A DNA stretch of 64,000 bases from Ruminococcus sp. (GTDB lineage: Bacteria > Bacillota > Clostridia > Oscillospirales > Ruminococcaceae): positions 21,320-85,319 of the forward strand of contig JAFSBM010000037.1 in assembly GCA_017437285.1 (NCBI GenBank), given 5' to 3'. The notes below the pieces were generated by a model, which was not told the DNA's origin, ran no database searches, and worked only from the letters and a program-made list of their open reading frames with translations. The first letter of the stretch is position 1, and every line of letters begins with the position of its first letter. The translations under genes were made by a program, and so were the position numbers. Below are positions 10,280-16,247 of the stretch, one piece after another.

Positions 10280-10520
10280 ATATGAAACTCAATGACTGAG
10301 AGAGTAGGCTGAAAATGAAGTCCACAGAGAGGAACACATTGGTGCGAGTGTTCTGACGGAGTATTGGCTGAAGTTCACTCACGAGAGGCAGAGTTGAATG
10401 CATATGCTGTGTAGGCTCTGACGTAAGTCTGCGTTATAGACAAGAGAGTGTCGGCTCTCCCGAAAATGGGTGGTATAGCAAGTTAGTCTTGTCCTGTTTG
10501 GGATGGGACTCTTTTTATTT
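10280..10520 (+). promoter_or_regulatory. T-box riboswitch leader with a Phe specifier
   Basis: AGAGA-type stem I elements. Specifier-loop GAAG-UUC-A has UUC at 10374-10376. T-box sequence AAAUGGGUGGUAUAGCA at 10464-10480. Terminator stem 10485-10494/10501-10510 is followed by CUUUUU. Confidence 0.8.
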
Positions 10521-10552
10521 ACGGCACAAATAAATATACAGGAGTGATTTTT

Positions 10553-11581
10553 TTGAAAGAACAGCTTGAAAGAATTGAAACGCTGGCGAAGCAGGAAATG
10601 GAGTCCTGCACAGACATTAAGGCACTTGACGATTTAAGAGTCAAGTATCTGGGAAAAAAAGGTGAGCTTACTGCTATTTTAAAGCAAATGGGTAAGCTTT
10701 CCGCTGAGGAAAGACCTGTTATCGGTCAGCTTGCAAATCAGGTTAGAGCTGATATTGAAGAAGCTCTCAGCACAAAGCTTGTTGCATTAAAGGCAAACGC
10801 ACAGGCTGAACAGCTTAAATCCGAAACAATTGATATTACTCTCCCCGGAAAGACAGCTCCAATGGGTAAGCTTCACCCTCTTACAAAGGTTGAGAACGAA
10901 ATCCGTGAAATATTCATGGGTATGGGCTTTGATATTGCCGACGGTCCTGAGGTTGACGACGATTATCACGTATTCGAGGCGTTGAACCTTCCTCCCGACC
11001 ACCCTGCAAGAGATACACAGGATACATTCTACATCGAGGGAACAGATGAAACAGTTCTCCTCCGTACACAGACTTCATCTGTACAGGTTCACGTAATGGA
11101 AACTCAGAAACCGCCAATCAGAATTATTTCACCTGGCAGAGTTTTCCGTTCTGACGCTGTAGACGCCACACATTCACCTCTTTTCCACCAGATTGAGGGA
11201 CTTGTAATTGATAAGGGAATCAAGATGAGCGACCTCAAGGGTACACTTGAAATGCTTATGAAGAAGCTTTACGGAAATGACTGCAAGCTTCGTTTCCGTC
11301 CTCACCACTTCCCATTCACAGAACCTTCATGTGAAGTTGATATAAGCTGCTTCAACTGCGGCGGATGCGGATGCTCCATGTGTAAGGACGAGGGATATAT
11401 CGAGCTTCTCGGTGCAGGTATGGTTCATCCTAAGGTGCTTGAAAACTGCGGTATTGACAGTACTGAATATTCAGGCTTTGCATTCGGACTTGGTCTGGAG
11501 CGTATGGTTATGGGACGTTACGACATTAACGACCTCCGTCTGCTTTATGAGAATGATGTAAGATTCTTAGAGCAGTTCTGA
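10553..11581 (+). CDS. pheS: Phenylalanine--tRNA ligase alpha subunit
   Basis: Class II aaRS motifs (HPARDTQDTFY, FRPHHFPFTEPS, GAGMVHP). The TTG at 10553 is preferred because AGGAG lies 8 nt upstream. The track GTG at 10544 overlaps the RBS. Confidence 0.93.
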   Translation: MKEQLERIETLAKQEMESCTDIKALDDLRVKYLGKKGELTAILKQMGKLSAEERPVIGQLANQVRADIEEALSTKLVALKANAQAEQLKSETIDITLPGKTAPMGKLHPLTKVENEIREIFMGMGFDIADGPEVDDDYHVFEALNLPPDHPARDTQDTFYIEGTDETVLLRTQTSSVQVHVMETQKPPIRIISPGRVFRSDAVDATHSPLFHQIEGLVIDKGIKMSDLKGTLEMLMKKLYGNDCKLRFRPHHFPFTEPSCEVDISCFNCGGCGCSMCKDEGYIELLGAGMVHPKVLENCGIDSTEYSGFAFGLGLERMVMGRYDINDLRLLYENDVRFLEQF

Positions 11582-11604
11582 TTATAGAAGGTATAGGGAT
11601 TTTT

Positions 11605-12237
11605 ATGAAAAGGGCAAATAAAACAGTTATTATTTCAATAATACTTATAATAGTTACGATTATTCTAACCGTTCTTTTTCCTGACAGCGGAACTCCTGTC
11701 TTTATATTACTTTTAGTTTTTTTGATATTTCCATTTGTTACGAGAATAGTTAACGGAAATAAGAATCAAAAACTGGTTTATGAGCGTCTTGGAGTGTCAA
11801 CTAAGGAAGAATATTATCGGGCATTATCGGAATTTAATGAACTTATAGCAAACAGATTGTACATTAAGGACGATTTGATAATTAATATTAATTCTTACGA
11901 TATGTATTACATTAATGAAATTGTAAGTATTGAAAAAGTTAATCGTCGTCATTATTCCCGCTATGGTCATACGTATCGTAATATTTCATATGAACTTAAA
12001 ATTATAACAGATTCAATTATTGATACACTCAAATACGATACAAACGTATCAGGCCGTGACTGTGCATATCTGCTTTTGTCGAGAAAGCTGACAGAATTCA
12101 GACAAGATACAGCCGGTGATGTCTATGACGGCTTTGTAAGCAATGAAAAGGCTTATTCTATGGATGAATATGATGATATGATTATGGACGAAGAAGATAT
12201 AAAGGACAGAGAAAACAGAAGTGACTGGCTTGGTTAA
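11605..12237 (+). CDS. Cassette ORF A: 2-TM protein with a soluble C-terminal domain and acidic tail, function unknown
   Basis: 210 aa. Two hydrophobic helices (aa 7-26 and 31-49), then a ~120-aa domain and a DE-rich tail (MDEYDDMIMDEEDIKD). AT-rich codon usage unlike pheS. Confidence 0.6.
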   Translation: MKRANKTVIISIILIIVTIILTVLFPDSGTPVFILLLVFLIFPFVTRIVNGNKNQKLVYERLGVSTKEEYYRALSEFNELIANRLYIKDDLIININSYDMYYINEIVSIEKVNRRHYSRYGHTYRNISYELKIITDSIIDTLKYDTNVSGRDCAYLLLSRKLTEFRQDTAGDVYDGFVSNEKAYSMDEYDDMIMDEEDIKDRENRSDWLG

Positions 12238-12282
12238 AAGAGTAGCATATGACAATTTTAAATTATAAAAGAGGTGAAAATT

Positions 12283-13074
12283 ATGGATGATAAAAAGAAA
12301 AAAGCCATAGAGTTGCTTGTTGATTCCAGTATAGAAAATTTTGTAACTGGTTTAACATCACGTTATGAAAAAGAAGTTGATAGTGATTTTGGTGTTGTTA
12401 ATATGAAAAAGAATAACTGTTTTATTGCTGAACTGGGAGAAGAATTTATGTTCTATTCTGCCTTTGTTCGCAGTTTTGACAGTAGTTTCGGAAATGTTTT
12501 GGAAACATTGGGAAATAATATTGCAAAATTATCTTATGATGTAAGAGGAAATATTAATTCTTTTATGTTGCCGGACCAGACTCAAAGAATAGCTTCTATT
12601 CTTGATAGTTATGGTAAGCATACATCAACACCTGCAATTAGTCATTATGAAAATTTTGATGTAATTTACCCTAAAAATACTGTAAGTTTTCAAACAACTC
12701 ATGTAACTGATAATTATTTTTATAATCCTGATACAAATGAGCATTATCTCATTATGTTAAAATCTCTTGATAATTGTAATACACAACAAGTTTATCATGA
12801 TAAAGAAGAATTGCTTACTCAATTTTTTCTCTTGAAAAATTCACTAAGTAATGAGAATGAAATAAAAATATTATTGTTTTATTGTCTGCCTTTTGAAACC
12901 GAACTGAATAATAGCAACAATTTTATTCTTAATATATTTGAGCCTAATGAATTCTTATTAGGAAAACAATACTGGAATTTTGTTTGCGATGATAATAATG
13001 GTTATTCAATTGTATCTAATCAGGTGAAAAAATCAATAGAAAAGCACATTCTGAAAGTAGGTTTATATGACTAA
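12283..13074 (+). CDS. Cassette ORF B: restriction-endonuclease-like protein, possibly TdeIII-like (unverified)
   Basis: 263 aa from the ATG at 12283 (AAGAGG 8 nt upstream). The SFDSSFGNVLE, TD...YLIMLKS and LLGKQYWNFV segments resemble my recollection of the TdeIII type II REase family. No search was run. Confidence 0.5.
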   Translation: MDDKKKKAIELLVDSSIENFVTGLTSRYEKEVDSDFGVVNMKKNNCFIAELGEEFMFYSAFVRSFDSSFGNVLETLGNNIAKLSYDVRGNINSFMLPDQTQRIASILDSYGKHTSTPAISHYENFDVIYPKNTVSFQTTHVTDNYFYNPDTNEHYLIMLKSLDNCNTQQVYHDKEELLTQFFLLKNSLSNENEIKILLFYCLPFETELNNSNNFILNIFEPNEFLLGKQYWNFVCDDNNGYSIVSNQVKKSIEKHILKVGLYD

Positions 13075-13699
13075 AGTAGAAGCGATAGAAGCCTTAATGC
13101 ATGAATACAATGGGATAATAACTTTAGAAATAATATATAATGAAATAGAAAAGTATTATCCAAACGCTAAATCATCAAACGAGTGGAAATCAGGGCTTAG
13201 AGGTGTCTTATATAGGGAGTTAGGAAAGAAATTTAAACGAATTGATAAATCAATATATTCCCTTATAGATTATGATGAGCGTAATCTAATAGTTCCACAA
13301 AAAGACCTGTTGATTACAGAGCAAGAGGTATTATCCATTGTCAGAACACAACAGCAGAATTTTAGAAAAAAGCTTTTAAATCATCTGAATTTATGCCCTA
13401 TCACATTGATTAATGATAAAAGACTTTTAGTAGCGAGTCATATTAAGCCTTGGTGTTTATCAAATAATGATGAAAGAGTAGACATATATAATGGTTTTAT
13501 GTTGTCGCCACTTTATGATAAATTGTTTGATAGTGGCTTGATAACATTTACAGACCATAAAGAATTATTAGTATCTTCTTCTTTATCTGAAGATACAATA
13601 AAAAAGCTAAATATAAACACAGGTATTTATGATAAACTTCCAGTTAAAGGAAGAGAAAAATATCTGGAATTTCATAATGAAAAAATTTTTATAAAATAA
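13067..13699 (+). CDS. Cassette ORF C: HNH nuclease (HNH_2-type) with an N-terminal wHTH-like domain
   Basis: The motif ASHIKPW...NGFMLSPLYDKLFDSGLITF matches the HNH_2 pattern (H-I-x-P ... N-G ... H/Y-x-x-F-D). The ATG overlaps the ORF B stop by 8 nt (ATGACTAA). Confidence 0.7.
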   Translation: MTKVEAIEALMHEYNGIITLEIIYNEIEKYYPNAKSSNEWKSGLRGVLYRELGKKFKRIDKSIYSLIDYDERNLIVPQKDLLITEQEVLSIVRTQQQNFRKKLLNHLNLCPITLINDKRLLVASHIKPWCLSNNDERVDIYNGFMLSPLYDKLFDSGLITFTDHKELLVSSSLSEDTIKKLNINTGIYDKLPVKGREKYLEFHNEKIFIK

Positions 13700-13726
13700 A
13701 AATTTTATTTAGAAAGGAAAAATTAT

Positions 13727-16183
13727 ATGAATTTATCAATGAAATGGCTCGCTGATTATGTTGATGTCAACGTGCCTATAAAAGATTATTGTCACGCTCT
13801 TACAATGAGCGGTTCAAAGGTAGAGGGCTATGAAATTGAGGGAGAGAAGATTTCCAAGGTTGTAGTAGGAAAAATTCTCTCAAAAGGACCTCACGAAAAC
13901 GCTGATGCTCTCTTTGTATGTCAGGTTGAAGTAGGAGCAGATGCTCCCATTCAGATTGTAACTAATGCAAAAAACGTCAAGGAGGGTGATATTGTTCCTG
14001 TTGCTCTTGACGGTGCTGTACTTCCTGAGGGAAAAATCAAGAAAGGCAAACTCCGTGGCGTTGAAAGCTTTGGTATGTTCTGCGGTCTTGATACTCTCGG
14101 ACTTACAATTAACGATTTCCCTTACGCTGACCCTGAGGGAGTTCTTGTAATTGAAGAAGAATGTGAAATAGGACAGGATATTCATGAGGCTCTAGGTCTT
14201 AATGACACATCAGTTGAGTTTGAAATCACATCAAACCGTCCTGACTGTCTTAGCGTTATTGGTCTTGCAAGAGAAACTGCTGCAACATATAATCTCCCCC
14301 TCACAGTAAAAGAACCTGAATTCAAAGGCGTTGAGGGCGATATCAACGAGATGCTCAAAGTTGATATTCACAACACAGAGAAGTGCCAGAGATATTGTGC
14401 AGGTATCGTTAAGAACGTAAAAATCGGTTCTTCACCTCGCTGGATGAGAGAAAGACTCCGTGCAAGCGGTGTTCGTCCTATCAACAATTTCGTTGATATT
14501 ACAAACTATGTAATGCTCGAATATGGTCAGCCTATGCACGCATTTGACCTCCGCTATGTTGAGGGCGGTCACATCAATGTAAGAAATGCTGTAAATGGCG
14601 AAAAGATTATGACTCTTGACGGTGTTGAGCGTGAACTTACAGAAGATATGCTCGTTATTGCTGACGAGAAAAAGCCTGTTGCAGTTGCAGGTGTTATGGG
14701 CGGTGAGTACAGCGGAATTATGGATGACACAACAACAGTTGTATTCGAGTCCGCATACTTTGAGCCGTCACAGGTTCGCCGTACTTCAAAGAACCTCAAA
14801 TTAAAGTCTGACGCTTCATCACGTTATGAAAAGGGCGTTGACCGTCTTATTTCAATGACTTGCCTTAAACGTGCATTTGAGCTTGTTGAGGAGCTTGGAG
14901 CAGGTGAGGTTGTAAAAACTGTAATTGACTGCGATTACACAGATAAGACTCCTGCATGCGTTGATTTCGATTCTGCTTGGATTAACGAATTCCTCGGAAC
15001 TGAAATTCCCGAAGCTGATATGATTGATTATCTCAATCGCCTTGGCTTTGAGGTTAAGGACGGTAAGGTTTATGCACCTTCATTCCGTATTGACATTGAG
15101 TGCCGTGCTGATATTGCAGAAGAAGTTGCAAGAATTTACGGCTACAATAACATTCCCTCAACTGATTTCAGAGGTGTTGCAAAGGCTGAATTCACAGAGG
15201 AACAGAAATTTGTACGTACATTAAGAAACACATCTGCATCACTTGGCGGATATGAAATTGCTACATATTCATTCGTTTCACCTAAGTATTTCGACAAAAT
15301 CAGACTTTCTGAGGACAGCAAGCTCCGCAAGGTTGTAAGAATTGTAAATCCTCTCGGTGAGGATACAAGCGTTATGAGAACAACTACTATACCCTCAATG
15401 CTTGATGTACTTTCATTCAACTACAATAACCGTAACGAAAAGGCTTGCCTTTTTGAGATTTCCAAGGAATATATTCCTGTTGCTGAAAAGCGTAATTATG
15501 AGGGAGATGAGGCTATTCTCGTAAATAGCGGAAAGCTCCGTCACGAGTACAAGTATCAGCTTCCCGATGAGCCACAGCGTCTTACAATCGGTATGTACGG
15601 CGGTGACGCTGATTTCTACACATTAAAGGGTATGGTTGAGCAGATTTTTGCTGAAATCAATATTGATGATGTAGAGTACATCCGTGCAAATGACTGCGAT
15701 GTATTTGATGAAAAGTCAGCATTCCACCCAGGCAGAAGTGCTGTTATTGTCAAGGACGGTAAATATCTCGGAATTATGGGCGAAATTCACCCCGAAGTAC
15801 AGGAGAATTACAAGCTTGGTGTCAAGACATATGCTGCAAAGCTTAATATTCCTGAAATGCTTGAACTTTCCTGCGATGAAATTTCCTATAAGCCCCTTCC
15901 TAAGTTCCCTGCATCAACTCGTGACCTCAGCGTTATTGTTGACGATGAAGTTCCGGTTGCAGCAATTGAAAAGGCTATCCGTGGAGCAGTAGGCAAGATT
16001 CTTGAAAAGGTTACACTTTTCGACGTATACAAGGGCAAGCAGATTGAGGAGGGCAAAAAGTCCGTTTCATACTCAATTTCAATGCGTTCACACGAGGGTA
16101 CACTCACAGATGAGCAGGCTGACGGTGCAATGAAAAAGGTACTTAAAGCACTTGCTGAAATTGGTGCAGAACTCAGAATGTAA
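13727..16183 (+). CDS. pheT: Phenylalanine--tRNA ligase beta subunit
   Basis: 818 aa. The N-terminus MNLSMKWLADYV, an EMAP/tRNA-binding domain, the B3/4 and B5 regions and a C-terminal FDX-ACB region are all recognisable. Confidence 0.93.
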   Translation: MNLSMKWLADYVDVNVPIKDYCHALTMSGSKVEGYEIEGEKISKVVVGKILSKGPHENADALFVCQVEVGADAPIQIVTNAKNVKEGDIVPVALDGAVLPEGKIKKGKLRGVESFGMFCGLDTLGLTINDFPYADPEGVLVIEEECEIGQDIHEALGLNDTSVEFEITSNRPDCLSVIGLARETAATYNLPLTVKEPEFKGVEGDINEMLKVDIHNTEKCQRYCAGIVKNVKIGSSPRWMRERLRASGVRPINNFVDITNYVMLEYGQPMHAFDLRYVEGGHINVRNAVNGEKIMTLDGVERELTEDMLVIADEKKPVAVAGVMGGEYSGIMDDTTTVVFESAYFEPSQVRRTSKNLKLKSDASSRYEKGVDRLISMTCLKRAFELVEELGAGEVVKTVIDCDYTDKTPACVDFDSAWINEFLGTEIPEADMIDYLNRLGFEVKDGKVYAPSFRIDIECRADIAEEVARIYGYNNIPSTDFRGVAKAEFTEEQKFVRTLRNTSASLGGYEIATYSFVSPKYFDKIRLSEDSKLRKVVRIVNPLGEDTSVMRTTTIPSMLDVLSFNYNNRNEKACLFEISKEYIPVAEKRNYEGDEAILVNSGKLRHEYKYQLPDEPQRLTIGMYGGDADFYTLKGMVEQIFAEINIDDVEYIRANDCDVFDEKSAFHPGRSAVIVKDGKYLGIMGEIHPEVQENYKLGVKTYAAKLNIPEMLELSCDEISYKPLPKFPASTRDLSVIVDDEVPVAAIEKAIRGAVGKILEKVTLFDVYKGKQIEEGKKSVSYSISMRSHEGTLTDEQADGAMKKVLKALAEIGAELRM

Positions 16184-16201
16184 TAAAATAGTATAAAGAT
16201 T

Positions 16202-16247
16202 AAACCGACAATTAGGGCATAAATGCTTTAATTGTCGGTTTTTCTTC
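16202..16247 (+). terminator. Rho-independent terminator of the pheST operon
   Basis: AAACCGACAATT ... AATTGTCGGTTT stem followed by TTTCTTC. Confidence 0.7.

What the first reader, a model, noticed from the sequence alone, without database searches (positions are those of the whole stretch)
12283..13699. Translationally coupled REase-like / HNH nuclease pair with no methyltransferase; the REase-like partner may be catalytically dead
ORF B ends inside the ORF C start (ATGACTAA, 8-nt overlap), which argues for stoichiometric co-expression. ORF C has a clear HNH_2-type core (ASHIKPW ... NGFMLSPLYDKLFDSGLITF) behind an ~80-aa N-terminal domain that looks winged-helix-like. ORF B has the size and several segments I associate with TdeIII-type PD-(D/E)xK enzymes (SFDSSFGNVLE; LLGKQYWNFV). 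Where I would expect the acidic residue of the (D/E)xK triad, the sequence reads YLIMLKS, with Met in place of Glu/Asp. One reading is that B is a DNA-recognition subunit and C is the cutter. With no cognate methylase present, the pair may be modification-dependent (type IV-like) or work by another self/non-self logic.
Basis: inference. Interest (0 to 1): 0.7.

Follow-up and report, generated by a model that had tools for sequence, protein, structure and literature searches.

The report
Disarmed restriction enzyme beside HNH nuclease
Inside the pheS-pheT operon of a gut Clostridia-type bacterium, a restriction-modification cassette has lost its methyltransferase to a winged-helix-HNH nuclease of the modification-dependent kind. 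Its restriction enzyme gene has become a chimeric copy without an active site, which shows how such cassettes are swapped and disarmed in nature.

Summary
ORF B (12283-13074) is a true TdeIII/HinfI/MjaII-family PD-(D/E)xK homologue (Pfam 8e-31; best fold match EcoO109I). ORF C (13067-13699) is a winged-helix (HARE-HTH-type) + HNH_2 nuclease. The two overlap by 8 nt, and no methyltransferase motif occurs anywhere in the 64-kb window.

ORF B reads M-L-K where 72 other distinct relatives from fetched loci, plus 29 of 31 aligned proteins, read E-L-K. The change goes well beyond one residue. All 31 family-invariant positions that ORF B has lost lie at aa 158-241.

ORF B is a chimera:
- Codons 1-~150 are 80-91% nt identical to active R genes.
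- The remainder is about 50% nt identical to those genes.
- That remainder moves with ORF C as one recently exchanged block (~12700-13840).

Sister genomes carry different cassettes in the same pheS-pheT slot: R + N6/N4 methyltransferase, intact R + HNH, or HNH alone.

ORF C keeps the four VcaM4I active-site residues and is under purifying selection (dN/dS 0.11).

Best reading: ORF C is the working, probably modification-dependent (type IV-like) nuclease, and ORF B is a dead, disarmed REase remnant. An accessory role for ORF B is not excluded, but a role as an obligatory recognition subunit is unlikely. This is a new variant of known kinds, of moderate interest.

The parts
10283..10499 (+). 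T-box leader of the pheS-pheT operon. It is the likely transcriptional control for everything up to the terminator after pheT.
   Evidence: Rfam RF00230, 104.9 bits against a gathering score of 93, E=4.9e-23. A terminator-like hairpin lies at 10485-10510.
10544..11581 (+). pheS, the left flank of the cassette slot.
   Evidence: The ORF is. The orthologous genes in L001, L012, L014 and L190 carry Phe_tRNA-synt_N and tRNA-synt_2d.
11605..12237 (+). ORF A: a 210-aa predicted membrane protein of unknown function in the low-GC island. It is not a conserved part of the pair.
   Evidence: No Pfam, NCBIfam or PADLOC family. It is absent from L012, L014 and L190, where R follows pheS directly. It is only 35% identical to the 212-aa ORF at the same place in L001.
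12283..13074 (+). ORF B: a 263-aa TdeIII/HinfI/MjaII-family REase homologue that is chimeric and lacks the catalytic Glu.
   Evidence: Pfam PF09520, 8.2e-31. AF2 model with pLDDT 75; best PDB fold match is EcoO109I (1wtd, prob 0.96), followed by other PD-(D/E)xK nucleases. Alignment A1.
12283..12735 (+). ORF B 5' half (codons 1 to about 151), orthologous to the active R genes that occupy this slot in other genomes.
   Evidence: It is 79-91% nt identical to the R gene of the R-M cassette in L191, and 84% aa identical to P0003. None of the 31 lost invariant positions lies before residue 158.
12709..12762 (+). Remnant of the PD-(D/E)xK active site: D143 (12709-12711), M158 in place of Glu (12754-12756) and K160 (12760-12762). 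The recombination junction lies in this stretch.
   Evidence: D143 and K160 are invariant, and E158 is present in all relatives except the window clade. Strands 138-141, 145-148 and 153-159 of the model carry these residues. Identity to L191 drops from 0.91 to 0.49 across 12690-12780.
12736..13074 (+). ORF B 3' half: a highly divergent R-like segment that travels with ORF C.
   Evidence: It is about 40% aa identical to every relative except P0002 (88%). The best match among 1.84 billion representative proteins is 38-41% identical. All 31 lost family-invariant positions fall at aa 158-241. dN/dS is 0.30 for aa 141-263 and 0.55 (not significant) for aa 158-222.
12700..13840 (+). Recently exchanged recombination block: ORF B 3' half, ORF C, and the first ~110 nt of pheT.
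   Evidence: Window against L001, nt identity by segment: 83% before ~12700, 92-97% at 12700-13100, 98-100% at 13100-13830, and 60-70% after ~13840. dS is 1.4 for the ORF B 5' half, 0.18 for the 3' half and 0.075 for ORF C.
13067..13074 (+). 8-nt overlap ATGACTAA (ORF C start inside the ORF B stop).
   Evidence: Read directly from the sequence. The same overlap occurs in L001 and L183. Other pairs have gaps of 6-16 nt.
13067..13699 (+). ORF C: a 210-aa winged-helix (HARE-HTH-type) + HNH_2 nuclease and the presumed working enzyme.
   Evidence: HNH_2. PADLOC HNH model PDLC04132, 1.6e-26. VcaM4I 6yex by sequence 1.2e-23 and by fold 1.3e-11; TagI 6ghs. AF2 model pLDDT 92. It retains all 52 family-invariant columns. 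dN/dS 0.107.
13067..13306 (+). ORF C N-terminal winged-helix / HARE-HTH-type domain (aa 1 to about 80), the putative DNA or modification reader.
   Evidence: Fold matches to forkhead domains of FOXN1 and FOXN3 (prob 0.97). Pfam HARE-HTH in 9 of 30 family members, best E 9.6e-6; the window protein itself gives only Forkhead at 0.0086.
13319..13696 (+). ORF C linker helix (aa 85-106) and HNH domain, with H125, N142, D151 and D155.
   Evidence: The alignment to VcaM4I places H125, N142, D151 and D155 on VcaM4I H224, N241, D250 and D254. Of these, H224, D250 and D254 were validated by mutagenesis; N241 is the structural Asn of the motif (PMC7897488). Helix 85-106 is in the model.
13727..16183 (+). 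pheT, the right flank of the cassette slot. Its first ~110 nt belong to the exchanged block.
   Evidence: The orthologues carry tRNA_bind, B3_4, B5 and FDX-ACB.
16202..16241 (+). The only strong intrinsic-terminator-like hairpin downstream of the T-box; it marks the end of the operon.
   Evidence: 18-pair stem followed by a T-run.

Best explanation
The pair is what remains after a cassette swap at a restriction hot spot inside the T-box-controlled pheS-pheT operon.

Ancestral state. The occupant was an ordinary type II R-M cassette: a TdeIII/HinfI/MjaII-family REase followed by a beta-class N6/N4 methyltransferase.

What changed. In one clade of gut Clostridia (Oscillospirales-like, judged from the names of related records), the methyltransferase was replaced by a 210-220-aa winged-helix (HARE-HTH-type) + HNH_2 nuclease. 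In the window's lineage, homologous recombination within the conserved THVTDNYFYNP..NEHYLI stretch of the R gene joined two pieces. The resident R 5' half was fused to a very divergent R 3' half that comes as one block with the HNH gene.

Consequence for ORF B. The chimera lacks the catalytic Glu and 30 other family-invariant residues, so it no longer cuts DNA.

Consequence for ORF C. It is the working enzyme. Its winged-helix domain binds DNA and probably reads a base modification. A linker helix gates the HNH domain as in VcaM4I, and the HNH domain (H125/N142/D151/D155) nicks or cuts nearby. This makes it a type IV-like, methyltransferase-independent restriction endonuclease.

Expression. 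Both genes are transcribed by read-through of the pheST operon. ORF C translation is at least partly coupled to ORF B, which may be all that keeps ORF B open.

Shown: homologies, fold, loss of motifs, chimerism, the exchanged block, the alternative cassettes, and purifying selection on ORF C.
Inferred: loss of ORF B activity, modification dependence of ORF C, and operon read-through.
For: (1) Family and fold. ORF B matches PF09520 at 8e-31, and its best fold match is EcoO109I followed by other PD-(D/E)xK enzymes.

(2) Active-site loss. E158 is Met only in the window, P0001 and P0002. Of 108 columns invariant in 29 canonical relatives, ORF B has changed 31, all at aa 158-241.

(3) Chimera.
- aa 1-140 are 84% identical both to P0002 and to the active P0003.
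- aa 141-263 are 88% identical to P0002 and about 40% identical to everything else.
- nt identity to the R gene of L191 falls from 0.91 to 0.49 at about 12735.
- In a tree of the 5' half, the window, L001 and the active L191 form a trichotomy at 81% each.

(4) Exchanged block. 12700-13840 is 92-100% identical to L001, against 83% and 60-70% on either side.

(5) Same slot, different cassettes.
- pheS-R(ELK)-N6_N4_Mtase-pheT in L190, and pheS end-R-DPPY methyltransferase in L191.
- pheS-R(ELK)-HNH-pheT in L012, L014 and L100.
- pheS-...-HNH-pheT without R in L186 and L187.

(6) Family norm. Among 74 distinct relatives, 30 have an N6_N4 methyltransferase downstream, 30 a D12-class methyltransferase upstream, 7 an HNH partner, 1 a winged-helix-only ORF and 6 nothing detected. 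The Firmicutes HNH-linked R genes nest inside the N6_N4-linked clade.

(7) ORF C is intact and constrained.
- It keeps all 52 invariant columns.
- It keeps the VcaM4I catalytic residues.
- Its model has pLDDT 92.
- Its dN/dS is 0.107, p=2e-4.

(8) ORF C relatives persist without a functional R. They are solo in L020, L022, L023 and L186, and sit next to a split R in L016, L018 and L019.

(9) Operon context. The T-box lies upstream, and the only strong terminator lies after pheT.
Against: - ORF B has stayed open. The chance of 123 stop-free codons at its composition is 7e-6, and the other two frames carry 11 and 25 stops. Its aa 141-263 show dN/dS 0.30, p=0.005 against neutrality. So something still constrains it: either a residual protein function or the need to deliver ribosomes to the ORF C start.
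- The R-HNH adjacency recurs across phyla (Firmicutes, CPR Magasanikbacteria, a gammaproteobacterial MAG) and in several genomic contexts. This hints at functional coupling that a pure relic reading does not explain.
- Intact R genes next to HNH and without an adjacent methyltransferase (L012, L014, L183, L188) are unexplained unless a methyltransferase acts in trans.
- Glu migration to another element is known in this superfamily (EcoO109I, Cfr10I; PMC3424549). Residual catalysis therefore cannot be excluded from sequence alone.
- Modification dependence of ORF C rests on homology and architecture only.
Confidence: 0.55

Rival explanations
1. ORF B is a non-catalytic subunit retained for a purpose: sequence-specific DNA binding, targeting or regulation. 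It forms a complex with ORF C, which does the cutting.
For: - Same-strand linkage at -8 to +16 nt is conserved in every R-HNH pair seen, across phyla and genomic contexts.
- ORF B has stayed open despite extreme divergence of its 3' half (7e-6 by chance), and aa 141-263 show dN/dS 0.30, p=0.005.
- HNH-linked R proteins share a modified C-terminal tail, Q[IVL][KR]KS, instead of QYKxS.
- A second family member with a lost Glu (P0241, Q-L-K) also sits next to a separate nuclease, Mrr_cat.
Against: - ORF C relatives exist alone or beside a frameshifted or deleted R, so they do not need R.
- ORF B has lost the family-invariant loop TAYNKFGEG..WKQERV and the GDLDNKK motif, which are candidates for DNA contacts.
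- The remodelled core at aa 158-222 evolves at dN/dS 0.55, not distinguishable from neutral.
- Conservation of the 5' half carries no information, because an active R (L191) is as close to each dead copy as they are to each other.
- ORF C already has its own DNA-binding domain.
Confidence: 0.25
2. This is an ordinary type II restriction enzyme whose methyltransferase lies elsewhere in the genome. ORF B is still active through a compensating acidic residue, and ORF C is an unrelated neighbour.
For: - Migration of the catalytic Glu is documented in EcoO109I and Cfr10I.
- D143, E153, K160 and E74 are retained.
- Only 64 kb of the genome could be inspected for methyltransferases.
Against: - 31 invariant positions are lost in one contiguous region, not a single substitution.
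- Glu is kept in every other one of more than 100 relatives.
- The remodelled core evolves near neutrality.
- The segment arrived by recombination together with the HNH gene.
Confidence: 0.07
3. The pair works like a toxin-antitoxin or abortive-infection module. ORF B (a REase-derived DNA binder) restrains the non-specific HNH nuclease ORF C, or the reverse, until infection.
For: - The VcaM4I HNH domain without its linker helix is toxic and non-specific (PMC7897488).
- Tight two-gene architecture, with insertion inside essential operons (pheS-pheT, mutS-mutL), resembles addiction modules.
Against: - ORF C keeps its own reader domain and the auto-inhibitory linker helix.
- Solo ORF C relatives are tolerated.
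- Neither protein matches a known toxin-antitoxin or abortive-infection family in PADLOC; ORF B has no hit at all.
Confidence: 0.08
4. Both genes are decaying passengers with no current function.
For: - The island is low in GC.
- Its content is variable, with ORF A only 35% identical between close genomes.
- The dead form is known from only three protein clusters.
Against: - ORF C has dN/dS 0.107 (p=2e-4).
- It keeps all invariant and catalytic residues.
- The block carrying it has recently spread between lineages that are otherwise diverged at dS of about 1 or more.
Confidence: 0.05

Closest known systems
TdeIII / HinfI / MjaII family type II restriction endonucleases (Pfam PF09520), with EcoO109I (PDB 1wtd) as the nearest solved fold
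   Same: ORF B is a clear sequence member (8e-31) with a PD-(D/E)xK fold. Its 5' half is 80-91% nt identical to R genes of complete R-M cassettes sitting in the same pheS-pheT slot.
   Different: There is no partner methyltransferase. The ExK Glu is Met. Thirty further family-invariant residues at aa 161-241 are replaced. The 3' half is of separate descent. ORF B is a homologue, not a working member.
Modification-dependent HNH restriction endonucleases VcaM4I (EVE-HNH, 5mC/5hmC) and TagI (PDB 6yex, 6ghs; PMC7897488)
   Same: The HNH domain and the preceding linker helix of ORF C are 37-39% identical to VcaM4I (fold E 1e-11). All four active-site residues are kept. The architecture is reader domain + HNH, with no adjacent methyltransferase.
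   Different: The modification it reads, if any, is unknown. The protein is shorter (210 aa). It is usually preceded by a type II REase homologue.
[quoted passage not shown] 2024, PMC11037411)
   Same: Same two-domain plan (winged helix + HNH, 224-283 aa in that study) and the same rarity of neighbouring methyltransferases.
   Different: Those enzymes are mostly haloarchaeal, and their winged helix was found by similarity to the DpnI winged helix, which reads Gm6ATC. The ORF C domain scores as HARE-HTH or forkhead-like, a type that paper suggests may instead read cytosine modifications. Relatedness of the two winged-helix types was not tested here.
DpnI / DpnII alternative restriction cassettes of Streptococcus pneumoniae (PMC3812788, PMC3573125)
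   Same: One chromosomal slot holds either an R-M cassette or a methyltransferase-less cassette encoding a nuclease of the modification-dependent type. The cassettes are exchanged by homologous recombination through the flanks.
   Different: Here the left crossover lies inside the R gene, so a REase (intact or dead) stays beside the type IV-like gene. Complementary specificity is unproven. The slot lies inside an essential tRNA-synthetase operon.
Degenerate or orphaned REase genes left after decay of an R-M system
   Same: Loss of catalytic residues in an R gene recurs in this family: P0254 (A-L-R) next to a methyltransferase, and a split R in CPR loci.
   Different: ORF B is not truncated or frameshifted. 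It is an intact, in-frame chimera whose dead half is linked to and co-transferred with another nuclease gene.

Membership tests
Pfam PF09520 (RE_TdeIII / HinfI / MjaII) type II REase family | Sequence match above the curated cut-off over most of the profile | tested here: met
   107.9 bits against 27.2, profile positions 2-234 of 242.
Pfam PF09520 (RE_TdeIII / HinfI / MjaII) type II REase family | PD-(D/E)xK fold | tested here: met
   AF2 model with pLDDT 75. Best PDB match is EcoO109I (prob 0.96), then Bse634I, SgrAI, MunI and cap-snatching endonucleases. TM-scores are low (0.37), so the fold is supported but not in detail.
Pfam PF09520 (RE_TdeIII / HinfI / MjaII) type II REase family | Catalytic D...E-x-K triad | tested here: not met
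   D143 and K160 are present, but E158 is Met. Glu is present in 29 of 31 aligned proteins and in all 72 other relatives from fetched loci.
Type II restriction-modification system | Cognate DNA methyltransferase encoded with the REase | tested here: not met
   No methyltransferase motif in the 64-kb window. Of 74 relatives, 60 have an adjacent N6_N4 or D12 methyltransferase. The whole genome could not be searched.
HNH_2 (PF13391) His-Me finger nucleases | Profile match and beta-beta-alpha-Me active-site residues | tested here: met
   38.9 bits against 21. H125, N142, D151 and D155 align with VcaM4I H224, N241, D250 and D254.
Type IV (modification-dependent) restriction endonucleases | Fusion of a DNA or modification reader domain with a nuclease domain, and no cognate methyltransferase | tested here: met
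   Winged helix (aa 1-80) + linker helix + HNH. No methyltransferase in any Firmicutes HNH-linked locus.
Type IV (modification-dependent) restriction endonucleases | Cleavage requires modified DNA | not testable with these tools
   Inferred only from homology to VcaM4I and TagI and from the architecture.
HARE-HTH (PF05066) domain | Profile match in the N-terminal domain | tested here: inconclusive
   9 of 30 family members match (best E 9.6e-6). The window protein itself does not, giving only Forkhead at 0.0086. The fold is a winged helix.
wH-HNH 6mA-dependent enzymes (PMC11037411) | DpnI-type winged helix that reads fully methylated Gm6ATC; Dam-dependent toxicity | not tested
   No sequences of that set were available for comparison. 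DpnI was not among the fold matches.
DpnI/DpnII-type alternative cassettes | Different restriction cassettes at one orthologous locus in related genomes | tested here: met
   pheS-[R-M]-pheT in L190. pheS-[R-HNH]-pheT in L012, L014 and L100. pheS-[dead R-HNH]-pheT in the window and L001. pheS-[HNH]-pheT in L186.
DpnI/DpnII-type alternative cassettes | Complementary specificity: one cuts the unmethylated site, the other the methylated site | not testable with these tools
   The recognition sequences of R, M and ORF C are unknown.

The most novel reading that the evidence does not exclude
The pheS-pheT slot may hold complementary restriction cassettes, as the DpnI/DpnII locus does. On this reading the HARE-HTH-HNH nuclease reads the very mark written by the methyltransferase it replaces.

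The dead R 3' half linked to the HNH gene would then act as a 'disarming arm'. The left crossover must fall inside the R gene. Only a donor block with an inactive R 3' half can delete the methyltransferase of an addictive R-M cassette without killing the recipient. That would explain why this block, rather than an intact R-HNH, has recently spread between diverged lineages.
Probability: 0.2. Interest if true: 0.8.

Novelty: new variant of a known kind. Interest (0 to 1): 0.55.

Why it matters
Type II R-M cassettes behave as addictive elements: losing the methyltransferase while the REase persists kills the cell. This locus offers a natural series of four states in one chromosomal slot: R-M, intact R + HNH, dead chimeric R + HNH, and HNH alone. 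The series shows how such a cassette can be replaced by a methyltransferase-independent nuclease. It also puts the crossover point and the inactivating change in the same recombination block.

The locus further defines a widespread HARE-HTH + HNH_2 family with more than 600 relatives, found in several phyla and often preceded by a TdeIII-family gene. Its specificity is unknown. Modification-dependent nucleases of this size are useful reagents for mapping DNA modifications.

Finally, the intact R + HNH pairs without a nearby methyltransferase remain unexplained and can be tested directly.

Tried and rejected
- Compensated frameshift as the cause of the divergent segment: rejected. In-frame islands of similarity persist (DKEELLTQFFLLKN against EKSALLEEYFLLKN; LLGKQYWNFVC), and the other two frames carry 11 and 25 stops.
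- Search for a donor of the ORF B 3' half: an exhaustive HMMER search of aa 149-263 against 1.84 billion representative proteins found nothing above 38-41% identity. The source lineage is unknown.
- More members of the dead clade: the full-length search lists only P0001 (99%) and P0002 (86%) before identity drops to 65%.
- Conservation of the 5' half (dN/dS 0.057) as evidence that ORF B still functions: rejected. An active R (L191) is equidistant from both dead copies.
- Recognition-site avoidance as a test of whether an R without a methyltransferase is active: inconclusive. GANTC and GGNCC are present in all loci, and many palindromes are depleted genome-wide.
- Sequence search of ORF B against the PDB, NCBIfam, PADLOC and PHROGs: no hits.
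- Pfam scan of the DPQY..LFLWV fragment upstream of the solo HNH in L186: no hit, so it cannot be called a methyltransferase remnant.
- The genome-contig scan with the ORF C alignment returned mostly proteins sharing only the HNH domain. It did not include the window's own species, so the organism could not be named.
- The Aravind and Iyer HARE-HTH paper (PMC3272235) is not held.
- No complex (multimer) prediction tool was available.
Full report
**What is there.**

The region lies between pheS (10544-11581) and pheT (13727-16183). It contains three same-strand ORFs in a low-GC stretch (0.25-0.33 against about 0.43 in the flanks):
- ORF A (11605-12237), a predicted membrane protein with no family match.
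- ORF B (12283-13074, 263 aa), with an AGAGGTG ribosome-binding site.
- ORF C (13067-13699, 210 aa).

ORF B and ORF C share ATGACTAA, an 8-nt overlap. A T-box leader (10283-10499, Rfam 104.9 bits) precedes pheS. The only strong terminator-like hairpin follows pheT at 16202-16241. The island therefore sits inside the pheST operon and is most simply expressed by read-through (inference). No ORF of 40 aa or more lies on the opposite strand between 12255 and 13880.

**Identity of the two proteins.**

ORF B:
- It matches Pfam PF09520 at E=8e-31 over nearly the whole profile. The family is named RE_TdeIII and is labelled HinfI in newer annotations. Steczkiewicz et al. list it under MjaII (PMC3424549).
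- It has no sequence relative in the PDB.
- An AlphaFold model (pLDDT 75) matches EcoO109I best (prob 0.96), followed by other PD-(D/E)xK nucleases.
- The model places D143 before strand 145-148, and the residues H-Y-L-I-M-L-K on strand 153-159. This is the classic position of D...(D/E)xK.

ORF C:
- It matches HNH_2 and a PADLOC HNH model (1.6e-26).
- Its aa 83-209 align to the HNH domain of the modification-dependent enzyme VcaM4I (E=1e-23 by sequence, 1e-11 by fold). TagI is the next fold match.
- The alignment puts ORF C H125, N142, D151 and D155 on VcaM4I H224, N241, D250 and D254. Of these, H224, D250 and D254 were validated by mutagenesis (PMC7897488).
- The long helix 85-106 corresponds to the VcaM4I linker helix, which that paper describes as auto-inhibitory.
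- The first ~80 residues fold as a winged helix (forkhead matches, prob 0.97). Nine of 30 family members match Pfam HARE-HTH.

**Is ORF B catalytically dead?**

An alignment with 29 relatives at 54-65% identity shows H-Y-L-I-E-L-K everywhere, except in the window protein and P0002 at 86% identity. The same E-L-K is present in every other distinct full-length relative recovered from metagenome loci.

The change is much larger than one residue. Of 108 columns invariant among the 29 canonical proteins, ORF B has changed 31. All of them lie at aa 158-241 and none lies before residue 158. The lost motifs include:
- E158.
- GDLDNKK, immediately after the ExK.
- The loop TAYNKFGEG..WKQERV.

Glu migration is known in this superfamily, in EcoO109I and Cfr10I. 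Residual activity therefore cannot be formally excluded. Even so, the coordinated loss of a whole invariant region makes an active nuclease very unlikely (inference; I put it at about 0.85 that ORF B does not cut).

**ORF B is a chimera.**

Identity by region is discontinuous:
- aa 1-140 are 84% identical to P0002 and also 84% identical to P0003, an E-L-K protein.
- aa 141-263 are 88% identical to P0002 and about 40% identical to everything else. Within aa 158-222 the figure is about 23%.

At the DNA level, identity to the R gene of L191 (P0003) is 79-91% up to about 12730, then falls to about 50% within one window. In a tree of the 5' halves, the window, L001 and the active L191 gene are equidistant at 81% each. 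In the 3'-half tree, the window and L001 sit alone on a very long branch.

Comparison with L001 shows a recently shared block:
- 83% identity before ~12700.
- 92-97% at 12700-13100.
- 98-100% from 13100 to about 13830, which is about 100 nt into pheT.
- 60-70% after that.

dS is 1.4 for the ORF B 5' half, 0.18 for its 3' half and 0.075 for ORF C. The ORF B 3' half and ORF C therefore move together by homologous recombination. One crossover lies in the conserved THVTDNYFYNP..NEHYLI stretch of R, and the other lies in the start of pheT. No donor for the 3' half exists in a library of 1.84 billion representative proteins (best 38-41% identity). A compensated frameshift is excluded.

**What the family normally looks like, and what sits in this slot elsewhere.**

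Partners of 74 distinct relatives:

| Partner | Count |
|---|---|
| N6_N4 methyltransferase immediately downstream | 30 |
| D12-class methyltransferase immediately upstream | 30 |
| HNH protein downstream | 7 |
| 82-aa winged-helix-only ORF | 1 |
| Nothing detected | 6 |

The Firmicutes HNH-linked R genes form one clade nested within the N6_N4-linked clade. The HNH gene therefore took the place of the methyltransferase.

Cassettes found in the pheS-pheT slot:
- L190 carries pheS-R(ELK)-N6_N4_Mtase-pheT, with the same upstream neighbours (YjeF, DUF6106).
- L191 shows the end of pheS, then R, then a DPPY methyltransferase.
- L012, L014 and L100 carry pheS-R(ELK)-HNH-pheT.
- L186 and L187 carry the HNH gene in the slot without any R.
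- The window and L001 carry the dead chimera plus HNH.

No ORF with a methyltransferase motif occurs in any Firmicutes HNH-linked locus, nor in the 64-kb window.

**How general is the pair?**

The R + HARE-HTH-HNH adjacency occurs elsewhere:
- Between mutS and mutL (L188).
- At an unrelated site, with the same 8-nt overlap (L183).
- In CPR Magasanikbacteria (L016-L019).
- In a gammaproteobacterial MAG (L021).

It is therefore a recurrent two-gene module. It is not obligatory for the HNH protein:
- Full-length relatives are solo in a Faecalibacterium MAG, a Flavobacteriales MAG and Pontibacter (L020, L022, L023).
- In three of four CPR loci the R gene is split into 65- and 215-aa pieces, while the HNH gene is intact.

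Loss or inactivation of R beside an intact HNH gene has therefore happened at least three times independently. The cases are the window clade, the CPR loci and L186.

**Selection.**

Between the window and L001:

| Region | dN/dS | p against neutrality |
|---|---|---|
| ORF C | 0.107 | 2e-4 |
| ORF B aa 141-263 | 0.30 | 0.005 |
| ORF B aa 158-222 (remodelled core) | 0.55 | 0.21 |
| ORF B 5' half | 0.057 | 1e-19 |

The low value for the 5' half is not informative, because those halves may have belonged to active enzymes until the recent exchange.

ORF B has nevertheless remained open. At its composition, 123 random codons would be stop-free with probability 7e-6. Either a residual protein role or the need to bring ribosomes to the overlapping ORF C start keeps the frame intact. 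I cannot separate these two.

**Most likely mechanism.**

ORF C is the working enzyme. It is a dimeric (by analogy with VcaM4I) winged-helix + HNH nuclease that binds DNA through its reader domain and cuts nearby. It needs no methyltransferase because it targets a feature absent from host DNA, most likely a base modification. This last step is inferred from the following:
- Homology to VcaM4I and TagI.
- The architecture shared with the wH-HNH type IV enzymes of Helbrecht et al. (PMC11037411).
- The absence of methyltransferases.

ORF B is a disarmed REase, a by-product of the cassette swap. An accessory role (about 0.25) remains possible, and so do the other rivals listed.

What remains unexplained is how the intact R genes in L012, L014, L183 and L188 are tolerated without an adjacent methyltransferase. 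Their sites cannot be absent, because GANTC and GGNCC both occur in those loci. Either a methyltransferase acts in trans or R is held in check.

**Comparison with what is known, and novelty.**

Each part is of a known kind:
- ORF B is a PF09520 homologue, but it fails the catalytic-triad and methyltransferase tests.
- ORF C is an HNH_2 nuclease of the modification-dependent type.

The closest system-level analogue is the DpnI/DpnII alternative-cassette locus of S. pneumoniae (PMC3812788, PMC3573125). The differences here are these:
- The crossover lies inside the R gene.
- A REase, intact or dead, therefore stays beside the type IV-like gene.
- The slot lies inside an essential, T-box-controlled operon.

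Literature searches for PF09520/TdeIII, for HNH_2/PF13391 and for HARE-HTH together with HNH found no description of this R + HARE-HTH-HNH module. That is absence in the held library only.

I rate it a new variant of known kinds, with interest 0.55.

Noticed in passing
window 10283-16241: The whole island (ORF A, B, C) lies between a T-box leader plus pheS and pheT plus its terminator. Expression is therefore probably tied to Phe-tRNA charging. Related cassettes are likewise wedged inside housekeeping gene pairs: mutS-mutL (L188), parB-serS (L007) and after guaA (L106).
   Followed up: partly
window 11605-12237; L001 3884-5706: ORF A is a 210-aa membrane protein with an acidic tail and no family match. 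L001 has four unannotated ORFs (181, 36, 170 and 212 aa) at this place, and only the last resembles ORF A (35% identity). This is a second hypervariable insert between pheS and the R gene.
   Followed up: partly
window 1-64000: Short palindromes are strongly under-represented. GATC occurs 29 times against about 180 expected, CCGG 34 against 182, GGCC 14 against 96, GCGC 4 against 76, CGCG 0 against 54, and CTAG 3 against 43. GANTC (126 against 215) is only mildly depleted.
   Followed up: no
L106 4986-6063: An intact E-L-K family REase right after guaA is followed by an 82-aa winged-helix-only ORF (Mrr_N/HARE-like by eye, no Pfam hit). It has neither a methyltransferase nor an HNH domain. This is another methyltransferase-less variant.
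   Followed up: partly
L182 37-3045: The gene order is D12 methyltransferase, Mrr_cat nuclease, then a 349-aa PF09520 protein (P0241) with Q-L-K instead of E-L-K and a C-terminal extension. This is a second case of a Glu-less family member next to a separate nuclease.
   Followed up: no
L016-L019 (CPR Magasanikbacteria): The R gene is split into 65- and 215-aa ORFs in three of four loci and is intact (289 aa) in L017. The neighbours are a 456-aa LexA-DNA-binding + S24 peptidase + N6_N4 methyltransferase fusion on the opposite strand, a Bro-N protein and a 143-149-aa methyltransferase fragment.
   Followed up: partly
L186 4718-5008: In the locus with a solo HNH gene, the stop-to-stop frame that ends in the same ATGACTAA overlap encodes ...FFDPQYRG...RVLRPTGYLFLWVDKF... 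This resembles methyltransferase motifs IV and following, but has no Pfam hit and no start codon.
   Followed up: partly
L180 453-1545: P0254 is a family member with A-L-R in place of E-L-K and a diverged following segment. It is followed by a DPPY methyltransferase, which looks like an R-M cassette whose R has been inactivated while M is kept.
   Followed up: no
window 12391-12474 (ORF B aa 37-64): The most conserved stretch of the whole family (GVINMKKNNCFIAELGEEFMFYSAFVRS) is the part of the AlphaFold model with the lowest confidence (pLDDT below 50). It may fold only on DNA or in a dimer.
   Followed up: no
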